A DNA stretch of 64,000 nt from assembly GCA_018062285.1 (NCBI GenBank), contig JAGOSO010000004.1, positions 3,491-67,490 on the forward strand. The letters are read 5' to 3'. Numbering within the stretch: the first letter of the stretch is position 1; each line of letters starts with the position of its first letter. The position numbers were made by a program, and so were the translations under genes. Positions 26,990 to 28,157 of this stretch are shown here, one piece after another. Under the pieces are notes generated by a model. The model did no database searches. It saw only the letters and a list, made by a program, of their open reading frames with translations, and was not told the origin of the DNA. Source of the DNA: Minisyncoccota bacterium (GTDB taxonomy: Bacteria; Patescibacteriota; Minisyncoccia; 2-02-FULL-40-12; GWA2-44-9).

Positions 26990-28025
26990 ATTTTGGAGGA
27001 TGAACATAGCCTTGGCCATCTCGGCCGATAGTGATATTGTCCTCCAAGCACAGAGCGAATCCATGTCTGCGAGCAATCGCGTACGGAGGCCTGCTCTGTG
27101 CATCTTTACAACCGTGGGTGGGACGTAAAAAATTGAGTCTCTTTAGGGACGTTGATTTCAGTGTCCCACCCACCCCTTTCTAAGATCTTAATCATTTAAT
27201 GTTTTAGAAAGGGGTGGACGAACATGGTGTTGTTCCTGGGTTTGTTCCAGGGGCGTGACGGTACGTGTCTACCCCGAACTTTTGGAGGACGAAAGAGAGT
27301 TTGCCTTAACAGGCGTCGCCAGTGTTGTCCTCCAGCACAGAGCGTAATCAACAGTGCGAGCAATCACGTTGGAGGTGTTGCTCTGTGCATCTTTACAACC
27401 GTGGGTGGGACGAAGAATTTGATGTCTTCCCAGAAGACAAGAACTATGTCCCACCCACTTCCTTCCAAGCTCTTAATCAATTGAGGTTTTGGAAGGAAGC
27501 GCGAAAGACACACTGTTGGTTAAGTCGACGACGAGTGGAATGCGCTCCCTAACTTTTGGAGGACGAATGAACGAATGGCCGTAGGCCTGACCCAGAGATT
27601 GTCCTCCAGCACAGAGCGTCCCTTGATATGCGGGCAACCGCGGAAGATCGACTGCTCTGTGCATCTTAACAACCGTGGGTGGGACGAAGAAAGCACTGTT
27701 CCTTTTGCAAAGACGATTCCAGTCTTGTCCCACCCACTTCCTTCCAAGCTCTTAAGTATTTGAGGTTTTGGAAGGAAGCGCGAATCTGGCCGTGACCTAC
27801 TATGCAAGTGGTTGGTAGTGAGATATAGTGCGCTTCCTACTTTTTGGAGGACGATAAGGTACTTGTTTTTTAAAGAGCGATCTTGTGGATGTCTTCCAGC
27901 ACAGAGTGATGTGGCCCGTGCGAGCAATCGCGAAGAACTCGTTGCTCTGTGCATCTTTACAACCGTGGGTGGGACGAAAGGAGGACTGTCCTCTAGGCGA
28001 TCGGATTGCTGTTCCACCCATTTCC
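26990..28025 (+). repeat. Structured repeat array B: three full ~275-290-nt units (U2 26990-27278, U3 27279-27552, U4 27553-27840) and a terminally truncated unit (U5 27841-28025), followed by the terminal module and a terminator
   Basis: Same conserved stem set as array A. The loop segments differ in every unit (for example 11 nt and 12 nt segments flanking the conserved GCGAGCAATCGC GNRA hairpin). U2 carries the compensatory variant CCCCTTTCTAA/TTAGAAAGGGG. Confidence 0.85.
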
Positions 28026-28082
28026 CATTAACCAGACGAAGAAGTCTTTGCCTAATTAGGTGTAGTACGTGATGTCTGGTTG

Positions 28083-28123
28083 CCCCCGAATGCAGGTTTT
28101 ACCACTGTATTCGGGGTTCTTTA
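28083..28123 (+). terminator. Hairpin CCCCGAAT-(17 nt)-ATTCGGGG followed by TTCTTT; putative end of the array B transcript
   Basis: GC-rich stem with a T-rich tail. Confidence 0.45.
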
Positions 28124-28157
28124 CAAATAATTAAGAATGCGCTAATATATACCTACT

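What the first reader, a model, noticed from the sequence alone, without database searches (positions are those of the whole stretch)
26990..28125. Array B: four further structured units with unique loop sequences, ending in the same terminal module as array A
Units U2-U5 repeat the stem architecture of array A with different loop contents. Examples of segment pairs flanking the GNRA hairpin are AATCCATGTCT / GTACGGAGGCCT, TAATCAACAGT / GTTGGAGGTGTT, TCCCTTGATAT / GGAAGATCGACT and ATGTGGCCCGT / GAAGAACTCGTT. U2 has the compensatory stem-4 variant CCCCTTTCTAA/TTAGAAAGGGG. Both arrays end in the same way: the last unit lacks stem 4 and is followed by a module ACCAGACGA-[variable]-ATGTCTGGT (25458-25509 and 28031-28080) and then a hairpin. 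So the two arrays are paralogous transcription-unit-like entities rather than random repeats.
Basis: seen in the sequence. Interest (0 to 1): 0.9.

Follow-up and report, generated by a model that had tools for sequence, protein, structure and literature searches.

The report
TIGR guide-RNA array around a Tas gene
The repeated structured units are a stem-loop TIGR array: 26 small two-spacer guide RNAs on both sides of a Tas gene in a Candidate Phyla Radiation bacterium, a kind of RNA-guided DNA-targeting system first described in 2025, so this is a real but already known type of system.

Summary
Window 26990-28125 holds four tandem ~285-nt units that end in an ACCAGAC/GTCTGGT module and a terminator-like hairpin, and they are paralogous to two units upstream (24981-25562).

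The units were parsed too coarsely. Each is a cassette of four separate stem-loop guide modules (a, b, c, d) plus one spacer-less hairpin ("stem 4"). Every module has the same plan:
- an outer stem of 7-11 bp;
- C-G-A, then a 9-nt variable spacer, then U-G;
- an inner hairpin;
- C-G-N, then a 9-nt variable spacer, then U-G, then the outer stem again.

I count 26 such modules, all on the + strand and nowhere else in the 64 kb.

The gene between the arrays (25649-26878, 409 aa, deposited as "transposase") is a TIGR-associated protein. It passes the NCBIfam TIGR_Tas_endo cutoff, and its closest solved fold is TIGR-TasR (9MTY). It has Arg where the first RuvC catalytic Asp would sit, as in the nuclease-dead TasR clade of Candidate Phyla Radiation (CPR) bacteria.

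Related loci carry the same module architecture with different spacers. No target was found for any spacer.

Verdict: a new member of a known kind, the stem-loop TIGR-Tas systems (Faure 2025; Xu 2026). It is not an IS110 bridge-RNA system. Moderate to low interest.

The parts
24944..24972 (+). Promoter-like site (TTGACG, 17 nt, TG-TATCGT) 9 nt upstream of the first module. It follows a terminator-like hairpin at 24883-24903.
   Evidence: Consensus scan. Function is inferred only.
24981..25033 (+). Module A1a, a-type, with variant stem GAAAGAC/GTCTTTC. Spacers GTCATGATT and CAGTGGTAC.
   Evidence: 33.9 bits
25034..25091 (+). Module A1b, b-type (GCACAGAGC/GCTCTGTGC, GNRA inner hairpin). Spacers TACGGTCTT and GAAGAGCTC.
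   Evidence: 39.4 bits
25103..25164 (+). Module A1c, c-type (GTGGGTGGGGC/GTCCCACCCAC).
25164..25205 (+). 'Stem 4', copy 1: an 18-bp hairpin without spacers. Its 3' arm overlaps the 5' arm of module d.
   Evidence: (z -6.6)
25200..25262 (+). Module A1d, d-type (AGGAAGCGC/GCGCTTCCT).
25268..25321 (+). Module A2a, a-type (GGAGGAC/GTCCTTC). Spacers GTGTACGGC and GGTGTTGAT.
25321..25374 (+). Module A2b, b-type.
   Evidence: 43 bits
25387..25446 (+). Module A2c, c-type, with one mismatch in the outer stem.
25456..25507 (+). Module A3t: the 'terminal module' with stem ACCAGAC/GTCTGGT.
25509..25562 (+). Module A4t (GGGAGAC/GTCTCCC), the last module before tas.
   Evidence: (39.1 bits)
25649..26878 (+). 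tas gene, 409 aa, of TasR type: a RuvC-like N-terminal domain with an insertion, a coiled coil, and a Nop-type C-terminal domain. Identical to MBP9822315.1, which is deposited as 'transposase' from a Candidatus Pacebacteria/Paceibacterota genome assembled from a metagenome.
   Evidence: (NF052498, 151.8 bits against cutoff 100)
26888..26939 (+). Module B0t (GTGAGAC/GTCTCGC), which starts 10 nt after the tas stop codon.
   Evidence: 40.2 bits
26941..26976 (+). Perfect 15-bp hairpin without spacers and without a U-tract. Role unknown.
   Evidence: z -7.7
26992..27048 (+). Module B1a, a-type.
27048..27101 (+). Module B1b, b-type.
27114..27173 (+). Module B1c, c-type.
27173..27214 (+). 'Stem 4', copy 2, the compensatory variant CCCCTTTCTAA/TTAGAAAGGGG.
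   Evidence: 4 double-sided pairs
27211..27275 (+). Module B1d, d-type, with variant stem GGGGTGGAC/GTCTACCCC.
27282..27335 (+). Module B2a, a-type.
   Evidence: 44.6 bits
27335..27388 (+).
27401..27458 (+). Module B2c, c-type. Its second variable segment is only 8 nt, so it may be defective.
27458..27499 (+). 'Stem 4', copy 3.
27495..27549 (+). Module B2d, d-type.
27556..27609 (+). Module B3a, a-type.
27609..27662 (+).
27675..27737 (+). Module B3c, c-type.
27737..27778 (+). 'Stem 4', copy 4.
27773..27838 (+). Module B3d, d-type.
27844..27899 (+). Module B4a, a-type.
27899..27952 (+).
27965..28021 (+). Module B4c, c-type.
28029..28082 (+). Module B5t: terminal module ACCAGAC/GTCTGGT.
28084..28124 (+). 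Terminator-like element: a 12-bp hairpin followed by UUCUUU, closing array B.
   Evidence: Read from the sequence; the scan missed it because the loop is 9 nt.

Best explanation
The region 24944-28124 is one TIGR-Tas locus of the stem-loop type, in a CPR (Paceibacterota) bacterium.

Layout. Nine guide modules lie upstream of a tasR-type gene and seventeen lie downstream, all on the gene's strand. Each module is a stem-loop tigRNA. An outer stem closes an internal loop in which two 9-nt spacers each sit between a box C-like C-G-A and a box D-like U-G. A short inner hairpin separates the two spacers. The RNA therefore has a two-fold pseudo-symmetry that suits a Tas dimer.

The cassette has been duplicated in tandem, and the spacers of the copies are unrelated.

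Inferred mechanism, by homology with TaTasR, CsTasR and PlTasA:
1. The arrays are transcribed, possibly together with tas, from the promoter-like site at 24944 to the terminator at 28084.
2. A host RNase cuts the transcript in the linkers into single stem-loops.
3. A Tas dimer loaded with one tigRNA unwinds an 18-bp DNA site. Spacer A pairs with one strand and spacer B with the adjacent stretch of the other strand, so the site reads spacer A followed by the reverse complement of spacer B.

The first RuvC catalytic position is Arg in this protein and is never Asp in 43 aligned relatives. The complex therefore most likely binds DNA without cutting and blocks transcription, as was shown for CsTasR. 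The natural targets are unknown.
For: Protein:
- NCBIfam TIGR_Tas_endo gives E 2.6e-44 and 151.8 bits against a cutoff of 100.
- The only PDB sequence hit is 9MTY, TIGR-TasR, at E 4.8e-14 and 2.2e-23 with a family profile.
- The AlphaFold model has pLDDT 92.7. Its best Foldseek hit is 9mty (E 1.4e-12), ahead of the IS621 and TasH structures.
- Position 8 is Arg in 33 of 43 relatives and never Asp. Xu et al. report R8 at the first catalytic position of nuclease-dead CsTasR.
- The last helix of the model ends 4 residues before the C-terminus, so there is no C-terminal Y/H processing loop. That is the state described for stem-loop clades.

RNA:
- There are 26 modules with one geometry. In the 25 that were tabulated, C7 is near-invariant (23 of 25), G8 invariant, A9 in 21 of 25, U19-G20 near-invariant, C27 in 20 and G28 in 24 of 25, and U39-G40 invariant.
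- Stems covary. Cells are 95.3% paired, with 88 double-sided changes against 27 in shuffles, reached by 0 of 500 shuffles. Sliding the partner by one column drops pairing to about 36%.
- U-G closing pairs are present, and covariance-model hits fall only on the tas strand.
- Sixty modules from five other loci, none used to build the model, show 96.6% pairing and 188 double-sided changes against 48 in shuffles. They flank tas on both sides.
- A close relative (RecR 88%, L21 91%, MurF 76% identical) keeps the same stem families. These include the compensatory GCACGGAGC/GCTCCGTGC stem and a CCAGAC module before terminators. It shares no spacer.

Literature:
- Stem-loop arrays with two 8-12-nt spacers flanked by box C/D motifs and palindromic stems.
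- A CPR TasR clade with an inactive RuvC domain, a hairpin between the spacers, arrays upstream and downstream of tas, and repression of transcription.
Against: - No expression, processing or binding data exist for this locus.
- No DNA target was found for any of the 26 spacer pairs. The window had no site with 2 or fewer mismatches, and 4 sites at 3 mismatches against 1.6 expected. The locus itself gave nothing.
- Exact 18-mer scans of viral contigs gave 0, 10, 0, 0 and 2 hits, against 2 hits for a wrong-geometry control.
- The box C-like motif is CGA, not the CCA of dual-repeat systems or the CUU reported for PateTasR. In the second half of the modules the third base is not conserved in this window.
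- Nuclease inactivity rests on one substituted position and on analogy. D97, D108 and D148 are conserved, and I could not superpose active sites.
- Stem 4 and the 15-bp hairpin at 26941 have no described counterpart.
Confidence: 0.9

Rival explanations
1. It is the same TIGR-Tas system but with an active nuclease. The protein would cut both strands of matching DNA, as TaTasR and ParTasR do, and serve as defence or inter-element competition rather than repression.
For: The NCBIfam model that it passes is named 'RNA-guided endonuclease'. Three acidic residues in the RuvC-like region (D97, D108, D148) are invariant or nearly so. In the weak profile alignment, D148 lines up with an acidic stretch of TaTasR.
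Against: Position 8, at the end of the first strand where RuvC and IS110 enzymes carry the first catalytic Asp, is Arg here and never acidic in 43 relatives. The described CPR stem-loop TasR with R8 (CsTasR) showed no cleavage in vitro and repressed transcription. Faure et al. also describe this CPR clade as having an inactive RuvC domain.
Confidence: 0.12
2. It is an IS110-family element with multiple bridge RNAs. Each unit would carry a target-binding loop and a donor-binding loop, and the protein would recombine DNA.
For: Pfam Transposase_20 matches and the deposited name is 'transposase'. IS621 and ISCro4 structures are the second-best fold matches. The two-segment loops resemble the loops of bridge RNA.
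Against: - The NCBIfam IS110 models score 37.9 and 26.9 bits against cutoffs of 140 and 180.
- The first DEDD position is Arg.
- In the profile alignment the IS621 segment RYESGSS, which holds the serine nucleophile (the identity of that residue is from my own knowledge), aligns with VL(K/P)DGRF, which has no serine.
- There are 26 single-loop modules rather than one two-loop RNA.
- The locus sits in the same gene neighbourhood in a related genome, and there is no second copy in the window.
Confidence: 0.02
3. It is an snoRNA-like system in which the guides pair with RNA (rRNA, tRNA or mRNA) rather than DNA. The dead RuvC domain would recruit or replace a modifying activity, as the inactive RuvC of Nop5 recruits fibrillarin.
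For: Faure et al. raise this CPR clade as a possible intermediate towards box C/D snoRNPs. The architecture of two guides, box C/D-like motifs and a Nop domain is shared.
Against: CsTasR of the same clade binds double-stranded DNA in a cryo-EM structure and represses transcription in a guide-dependent way. The arrays contain no canonical RUGAUGA box. No methyltransferase lies next to the locus. TaTasR had no activity on RNA substrates.
Confidence: 0.04
4. The repeats are structured but functionless, for example decaying palindromic elements or a relic array next to a domesticated transposase.
For: No target was found. One module (B2c) has a shortened second segment, and A2c has a stem mismatch.
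Against: Geometry is exact in 25 of 26 modules and compensatory changes are strong. The same architecture is kept in loci whose Tas proteins are only 49-57% identical. The box nucleotides are invariant while the spacers are at random-level similarity.
Confidence: 0.02

Closest known systems
Stem-loop TIGR arrays with the nuclease-dead CPR-clade TasR (CsTasR of Candidatus Staskawiczbacteria; Xu et al., bioRxiv 10.64898/2026.09.09.750476; clade first noted by Faure et al. 2025, PMC12045711)
   Same: - A CPR host.
- A TasR with Arg at position 8 of the RuvC-like domain and an insertion in that domain.
- No C-terminal Y/H loop.
- Arrays both upstream and downstream of tas.
- Long outer stems.
- A 4-5-bp hairpin between the two spacers.
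- Spacers of 9-10 nt.
- Stem sequences that differ between modules of one array.
   Different: - The protein is 409 aa, against 547 aa for CsTasR. I could not align the two because the CsTasR sequence is not released.
- The modules here form a repeated four-module cassette with a spacer-less 18-bp hairpin, which the papers I could read do not describe.
- The box C-like motif reads CGA.
PlTasA stem-loop array (gut metagenome of Peromyscus leucopus; Faure et al. 2025, section 9 and Fig. 7; Guan et al. 2026)
   Same: Tandem stem-loops, each with two spacers flanked by box C/D motifs. The stems are palindromic and variable. The locus is organised in sub-arrays, and each stem-loop is processed into one RNA.
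   Different: The effector there is TasA, without a nuclease-like domain, and the loop between the spacers is mostly a short linker. Here there is a RuvC-like domain and a structured inner hairpin.
Dual-repeat TIGR-TasR (TaTasR, PDB 9MTY; ParTasR)
   Same: It is the best sequence and fold match of the protein. It also uses two 9-nt spacers that act on opposite strands of an 18-bp site, has a box D UG, and has a terminator after the array.
   Different: Those arrays are alternating 8-12-nt edge and loop repeats that give 36-nt tigRNAs. The RuvC domain is active (D11), and box C is CCA. Here stems replace the edge repeats and the first catalytic Asp is Arg.
IS110 / IS621 bridge RNA recombinases (PDB 8WT6, 8WT9)
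   Same: Homologous RuvC-like and Nop-type domains. The guide loops have two segments that read opposite DNA strands.
   Different: Bridge RNA is a single RNA with a target loop and a donor loop, and the enzyme has a DEDD site and a serine nucleophile and moves the element. None of these features is met here.
Archaeal box C/D sRNPs (Nop5-fibrillarin-L7Ae; PDB 3PLA)
   Same: A Nop-domain dimer on a two-guide, pseudo-symmetric RNA, with an inactive RuvC-like N-terminal domain.
   Different: Those guides have RUGAUGA/CUGA K-turn boxes, target RNA, and work with partner proteins. Here there are no such boxes, and the fold match is only marginal (E 0.5-0.8).

Membership tests
TIGR-Tas system | A Tas protein with a Nop-type RNA-binding domain and a coiled-coil dimerisation region | tested here: met
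   NF052498 scores 151.8 bits against a cutoff of 100. 9MTY is the only PDB sequence hit and the best fold hit. The model has long helices at 168-206 and 368-405.
TIGR-Tas system | [quoted passage not shown] | tested here: met
   There are 26 modules. In the 25 tabulated, the pattern C-G-(A) N9 U-G occurs twice per module: G8, U39 and G40 are invariant, and C7, U19, G20 and G28 are conserved at 90% or more.
TIGR-Tas system | Spacers variable and unique while the scaffold is conserved | tested here: met
   The mean pairwise distance of spacer pairs is 12.9 of 18 and the minimum is 7. Similarity within a module type is not above that between types. Stems of one type are nearly identical.
TIGR-Tas system | The array is transcribed and processed into single tigRNAs that co-purify with Tas | not testable with these tools
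   Only promoter-like and terminator-like sites and predicted folds are available.
TIGR-Tas system | Tandem-spacer recognition of an ~18-bp DNA site, one spacer per strand | tested here: inconclusive
   No site of the form A + rc(B) with 2 or fewer mismatches exists in the 64 kb or in the locus. Viral 18-mer scans are at background level. Most of the genome and its natural partners are not available.
Stem-loop TIGR sub-type, CPR TasR clade | Palindromic flanks that form stems in place of edge repeats, supported by covariation | tested here: met
   Outer-stem cells are 98.9% paired and 6 of 7 pairs carry double-sided changes. In independent loci the figure is 98.6%.
Stem-loop TIGR sub-type, CPR TasR clade | [quoted passage not shown] | tested here: met
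   The inner helix is 90.4% paired and 4 of 5 pairs carry double-sided changes.
Stem-loop TIGR sub-type, CPR TasR clade | A RuvC-like domain with substituted catalytic residues (R8 in CsTasR) | tested here: met
   R8 is present here. The column is R in 33 of 43 sequences and V, Q, A or S in the rest, never D or E. The second position (V126 in CsTasR) could not be mapped.
Stem-loop TIGR sub-type, CPR TasR clade | Absence of the C-terminal Y/H tigRNA-processing loop | tested here: met
   The last helix of the model spans 368-405 of 409 residues. Relatives end within about 10 residues of it.
Stem-loop TIGR sub-type, CPR TasR clade | A CUU motif at the stem base or linker that marks processing sites | tested here: inconclusive
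   CTT occurs in the 3' arm or the next 20 nt for 16 of 26 modules. That is more than my rough random estimate of about 30%, but I did not make a formal test, and the motif is absent after most a-type modules.
IS110 family with bridge RNA | An IS110 transposase with a DEDD RuvC-like site and a serine nucleophile | tested here: not met
   IS110 models score 37.9 and 26.9 bits against cutoffs of 140 and 180. Arg stands at the first DEDD position. The IS621 segment RYESGSS aligns with a serine-free segment.
IS110 family with bridge RNA | One non-coding RNA with two internal loops (target-binding and donor-binding) whose donor loop matches the element ends | tested here: not met
   There are 26 modules, each with a single two-spacer loop. 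No spacer pair matches sequences flanking the locus.
Box C/D sRNA | RUGAUGA (box C) and CUGA (box D) K-turn motifs | tested here: not met
   RTGATGA does not occur in 24900-28140 on either strand. No Rfam family reaches threshold.

The most novel reading that the evidence does not exclude
TIGR arrays in this lineage may grow by tandem duplication of a four-guide cassette (a-b-c-stem 4-d). The spacers, and in three of the four module types the whole inner hairpin as well, would then be replaced by a directed process rather than by slow drift. Candidates are gene conversion or recombination that uses the conserved outer stems and linkers as homology arms.

The observations behind this reading:
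- Scaffolds are nearly identical within and between two closely related genomes, yet no spacer is shared, and paralogous copies are at random-level similarity.
- Tas has diverged to 54-57% identity while the neighbouring housekeeping proteins are 76-91% identical.

If true, the locus pair (this window and GCA_034680565.1) would give a handle on the open question of how TIGR arrays acquire guides. The spacer-less 18-bp hairpin could be part of that process or of tigRNA maturation.
Probability: 0.12. Interest if true: 0.65.

Novelty: new member of a known kind. Interest (0 to 1): 0.3.

Why it matters
The finding turns a deposited 'transposase' with unexplained flanking repeats into a complete RNA-guided locus: 26 guides, 52 spacers, one effector, in a chromosomal context of a CPR bacterium. 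The kind is already known, so the value lies in detail:
- a fully parsed native stem-loop array whose guide scaffolds are arranged in a repeated four-module cassette;
- a conserved terminal module;
- an extra structured hairpin with compensatory changes;
- a closely related genome with the same scaffolds but different spacers and a much more diverged Tas.

These points bear on two questions the TIGR papers leave open: how arrays expand and acquire spacers, and how stem-loop tigRNAs are matured. The finding also shows that current naming can mislead for this clade, both 'transposase' in the record and 'RNA-guided endonuclease' in the NCBIfam model, because the protein probably neither transposes nor cuts.

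Tried and rejected
1. Rfam, at gathering threshold on the whole window and at E-value threshold on 24800-28200. Only tRNAs and one chance miRNA match appeared, so no curated family covers these RNAs.
2. PADLOC for the Tas protein and the two small upstream ORFs gave nothing. Pfam and NCBIfam gave nothing for the 107-aa Zn-ribbon-like ORF, and the 80-aa ORF had only a sub-threshold Pfam NAD4L match.
3. Self-targets. I searched for 18-bp sites of both possible geometries in the window outside the locus and inside it.
   - There were no sites with 2 or fewer mismatches, and counts at 3-4 mismatches equalled those for shuffled spacers.
   - Three 3-mismatch sites cluster in the A-rich 3' end of dnaK (40056-40147). 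I judged them to be compositional.
   - Exact single 9-mers outside the locus numbered 37, against 27.8 +/- 5.7 for shuffles.
4. Viral targets. Five exact 18-mers of the expected geometry gave 0, 10, 0, 0 and 2 hits, and a wrong-geometry control gave 2.
   - The 10 hits of module A2a all encode V-Y-G-I-N-T in high-GC codons.
   - They fall into four unrelated genes, six of them in one phage major head protein family.
   - No other spacer matches those loci. I treat this as a weak lead, not as a target.
5. Search for the b-type scaffold in other genomes, to find strains with other spacers. There were no matches in genome contigs (two scans) or metagenome contigs (one scan). This collection holds no close relatives beyond L001.
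6. Test of shared ancestry of spacers in paralogous modules. Similarity within a type was not clearly above that between types (p 0.45 for spacer A, 0.03 for spacer B).
7. My first structure-only scan for stem-loops was too permissive, with hits all over the window. It became specific only after the box nucleotides were added.
8. Mapping of the remaining RuvC catalytic positions onto TaTasR was not possible. The profile alignment of the N-terminal half is weak, and the tools return no residue-level superposition.
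Full report
**1. What is in the sequence**

Window 26990-28125 contains four tandem units with a period of 274-290 nt. Two further units lie at 24981-25446, on the other side of a 409-codon ORF (25649-26878, + strand). A MAFFT alignment of the six units shows blocks of invariant sequence alternating with blocks that keep their length but not their sequence.

- the four segment pairs beside the GCGAGCAATCGC hairpin;
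- the CCCCTTTCTAA/TTAGAAAGGGG variant;
- the ACCAGAC...GTCTGGT modules at 25456-25507 and 28029-28082.

**2. The unit is a cassette of four smaller modules**

A scan asked for four things: an outer stem, a loop segment that starts with G and ends with T, an inner hairpin, and a second segment that ends with T before a G. It found one recurring design:

- outer stem ending in C;
- G-A, then nine variable nucleotides, then U;
- inner hairpin running from G to C;
- G, then ten nucleotides, then U;
- outer stem starting with G.

I curated 26 such modules by hand.
- Upstream of the ORF there are nine: A1a, b, c, d; A2a, b, c; A3t; A4t.
- Downstream there are seventeen: B0t; B1a-d; B2a-d; B3a-d; B4a-c; B5t.
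- The four stem families recur in the same order: a (GGAGGAC/GTCCTCC), b (GCACAGAGC/GCTCTGTGC, with the GNRA inner hairpin), c (GTGGGTGGGAC/GTCCCACCCAC) and d (GGAAGCGC/GCGCTTCC).
The 'terminal module' is another one. The 'hairpin' after the terminal module of array A (25509-25562) is another one again.
- Only 'stem 4' is a plain hairpin.

The geometry is 11+11 nt in 25 of the 26 modules. The exception is B2c, whose second segment has 8 nt. A1c reaches 11+11 once the last base of its inner hairpin is assigned as.

**3. More than chance**

On constant-length excerpts of 25 modules, the 12 proposed pairs are 95.3% paired.
- They carry 88 cells changed on both sides, against 27 in column shuffles (0 of 500 shuffles reach this).
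- Pairing falls to about 36% when partners are slid by one column.
- I chose these modules using structural rules, so this count leans towards the structure.

Independent evidence comes from a covariance model built on the modules.
- In the 64-kb window it finds nothing outside 24981-28080 (+), even at E up to 1.
- In five loci from other genomes it finds 60 further modules. These are 96.6% paired, with 188 double-sided cells against 48 in shuffles.
- Whole-unit folds give the predicted row of stem-loops, with z-scores of -5.5 and -10.9.
- The near-invariant U-G closing pair of the inner hairpin, and model hits on one strand only, point to transcription of the + strand, the strand of the ORF.

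**4. The gene between the arrays**

The 409-aa product is identical to MBP9822315.1, deposited as 'transposase' from a Candidatus Pacebacteria/Paceibacterota genome assembled from a metagenome.
- Pfam sees only Transposase_20.
- NCBIfam places it in TIGR_Tas_endo, 'TIGR-Tas system RNA-guided endonuclease', with 151.8 bits against a cutoff of 100. The IS110 models stay far below their cutoffs.
- The only solved relative by sequence is 9MTY, the TIGR-TasR complex.
- An AlphaFold model from 43 relatives is confident (pLDDT 92.7). Its best Foldseek match is 9mty, followed by IS621 and ISCro4 recombinases and TasH.
- More than 500 homologues exist. The named ones are from Patescibacteria/CPR genomes assembled from metagenomes, and the closest is only about 55% identical.

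**5. Comparison with what is published**

Faure et al. (PMC12045711) defined TIGR arrays and Tas proteins.
- They also describe a CPR clade of TasR with an inactive RuvC domain that is associated with stem arrays.

Xu et al. (10.64898/2026.09.09.750476) catalogued 2,559 stem-loop arrays. For the CPR clade they report:
- a hairpin in the loop between the spacers;
- arrays upstream and downstream of tas;
- stems that differ within one array, and overlapping stems (zero linker);
- loss of the C-terminal Y/H processing loop;
- a CUU motif at processing sites;
- for CsTasR, R8 and V126 at the first two RuvC catalytic positions, no cleavage in vitro, and guide-dependent repression of transcription.

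The locus here matches these points feature by feature.
- The motifs C-G-A (box C-like) and U-G (box D-like) bracket each spacer, and the C and G form the closing pair, in two-fold arrangement.
- The inner hairpin has 4-5 bp.
- Modules a and b share one nucleotide, so they have zero linker.
- The protein begins RLIAIR8HQRK, where IS110-type enzymes have IGIDxxK (the IS110 motif is from my own knowledge). Column 8 is never acidic in 43 relatives.
- The final helix ends 4 residues before the C-terminus.
- CTT lies at or just after the 3' arm of 16 of 26 modules. This is compatible with the published motif but was not formally tested.

**6. How it most likely works**

Shown here:
- the architecture of the RNA modules and their covariation;
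- the family assignment and fold of the protein;
- the substitution at position 8;
- conservation of the whole arrangement in other genomes.

Inferred from the published systems:
- Transcription probably runs from the promoter-like site at 24944-24972 to the hairpin plus UUCUUU at 28084-28124. The scan found only a weak terminator-like site (6-bp stem at 25598-25613, T-poor tail) between array A and tas, so one long transcript that includes tas is possible.
- A host RNase would release single stem-loops.
- A Tas dimer would bind the two box C/D junctions and unwind an 18-bp site.
- TaTasR leaves 8-nt 3' overhangs. From this I derived that the site must read, on one strand, spacer A followed by the reverse complement of spacer B, with the 3' ends of the two spacers meeting at the centre.
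- With Arg at the first catalytic position, the complex most likely binds DNA and blocks transcription rather than cutting.

**7. Targets**

I listed the 26 predicted sites.
- The window outside the locus has no site with 2 or fewer mismatches. The counts at 3 and 4 mismatches (4 and 25) match shuffled spacers (1.6 and 22).
- The locus itself has none.
- Exact 18-mers in the viral collection gave 0, 10, 0, 0 and 2 hits, and a wrong-geometry control gave 2.
- The ten hits for module A2a all read V-Y-G-I-N-T in high-GC codons and fall in four unrelated genes, six of them in one phage major head protein family. No other spacer matches those contigs. I regard this as chance helped by codon bias.

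[quoted passage not shown] The absence of a target therefore does not count against guide function. It leaves the biological role open.

**8. Comparison with a close relative**

Locus L001 (GCA_034680565.1) has the same neighbours: MurF, a GIY-YIG protein, L21, RecR and DnaB.
- RecR is 88% identical, L21 91% and MurF 76%. Its Tas is only 54-57% identical.
- Its locus lies in a different intergenic slot of the same neighbourhood.
- Its modules use the same stem families: GGAGGAC; GCACGGAGC/GCTCCGTGC, a double compensatory change relative to GCACAGAGC/GCTCTGTGC; GTGGGTGGGGC; and CCAGAC.
- The order a-b-c is kept.
- Three of its five CCAGAC-type modules, each the last of its run, stand directly before a terminator-like hairpin or at the array end; the fourth lies inside the array upstream of tas. 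One such run lies on the opposite strand, about 2.6 kb upstream of tas.
- No spacer is shared. The best pair has 6 mismatches in 18, which is within chance for about 700 comparisons.
- Across both loci, spacers of the same module type are not clearly more alike than spacers of different types.

So the scaffolds are under strong purifying selection while the spacers are saturated or replaced. I could not tell drift from directed replacement. This is the basis of the 'novel case'.

**9. Elements without a described counterpart**

- 'Stem 4' has four copies. It is an 18-bp hairpin without spacers (z about -6.5), and copy B1 has four double-sided compensatory pairs. Its 3' arm overlaps the 5' arm of module d by 4-6 nt. 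In B1 all three partners changed together, so both helices seem to be maintained.
- A perfect 15-bp hairpin at 26941-26976 separates the first downstream module from the cassettes.

Both are long enough to be considered as double-strand RNase sites. That is speculation.

**10. Rivals**

- IS110 element with bridge RNAs: rejected on tested features.
- Active nuclease version of the same system: possible but less likely.
- RNA-targeting, snoRNA-like role: raised in the literature for this clade, but disfavoured by the CsTasR data and by the absence of canonical boxes.
- Functionless repeats: contradicted by the covariation and the cross-genome conservation.

**11. Verdict**

The finding is real and well observed. 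It belongs to a system type published in 2025-2026, so it is a new member of a known kind. Today the value lies in details: the cassette organisation, the extra hairpins, the informative sister locus, and the misleading annotation. I score interest at 0.3.

Noticed in passing
window 25164-25205, 27173-27214, 27458-27499, 27737-27778: A spacer-less 18-bp hairpin ('stem 4') lies between modules c and d of each full cassette. Copy B1 has four compensatory pairs. The 3' arm overlaps the 5' arm of module d, and in B1 the three complementary stretches changed together (CCCC/GGGG/CCCC against CTTCC/GGAAG/CTTCC). The TIGR papers I read describe no counterpart.
   Followed up: partly
window 26941-26976: A perfect 15-bp hairpin (z -7.7) without a U-tract lies between the first downstream module and the first cassette. 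It could be a processing or boundary element. It is unexplained.
   Followed up: partly
window 27877-27892 against 26757-26772: The second spacer of module B4a (ATCTTGTGGAT) is fully complementary to the coding strand of tas itself (15 of 16 with the flanks). The adjacent 9 nt match spacer A in only 4 of 9 positions. I expect about 0.1-0.2 such matches by chance in 7 kb, so this is probably chance. A half-site of this kind sufficed for nicking by TaTasR at wcaD.
   Followed up: partly
L001 (GCA_034680565.1, JAXOUH010050580.1) 2126-7237: The closely related genome (RecR 88%, L21 91%, MurF 76% identical) has a Tas that is only 54-57% identical, the same stem families and no shared spacer. Its locus sits in another intergenic slot of the same neighbourhood. 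It also has an extra a-b-c-t cassette with its own terminator on the opposite strand, upstream of murF.
   Followed up: partly
window 25649-26878; L001, L002, L005, L006, L007: The tas genes are richer in G+C than their surroundings: 0.58 against 0.44 here, and 0.53-0.61 against 0.37-0.49 in five of six related loci. This could reflect horizontal movement among CPR genomes or a compositional constraint.
   Followed up: partly
L011-L014, L016, L017 (IMG/VR contigs); window 25279-25310: The predicted 18-bp site of module A2a (GTGTACGGCATCAACACC) occurs exactly in a major head protein gene (phrog_212) of six high-GC viral contigs and in three other unrelated viral genes. In every case it reads as the codons V-Y-G-I-N-T. 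No second spacer hits those contigs.
   Followed up: partly
window 24308-24876: Two small ORFs lie in the G+C-rich stretch just upstream of array A: 80 aa with a hydrophobic segment, and 107 aa with CxxxxC...CxxC. A terminator-like hairpin follows at 24883-24903. Neither ORF passes any Pfam, NCBIfam or PADLOC threshold. It is unclear whether they belong to the locus.
   Followed up: partly
window 40056-40147: Three of the four 3-mismatch matches to predicted guide sites (B1c, B2b, B2c) fall within 92 bp at the A-rich 3' end of dnaK. This is probably compositional, because the spacers are purine-rich at their 5' ends.
   Followed up: partly
window 25649-26878: Annotation issue. The record calls the protein 'transposase', and the NCBIfam model that now captures it is named 'RNA-guided endonuclease'. 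For this clade, with Arg at the first RuvC position, both names are probably wrong.
   Followed up: yes
window 27520-28017 (-), 27224-27484 (+) and others: Several ORFs of 60-165 codons are listed across the arrays on both strands. They overlap the structured modules and are most likely spurious.
   Followed up: no
window 3949-4047: A tandem repeat of 48 nt, 2.1 copies, 88% matches (consensus rich in ACC/CCA). It is probably a coding repeat and is unrelated to the finding.
   Followed up: no
L002 (SRR22387933 contig) 5001-6239: A Tas homologue about 52% identical has almost no module that my model detects (one hit at E 0.1), although about 2 kb of non-coding DNA lies upstream. Its guides may have a different geometry.
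   Followed up: no
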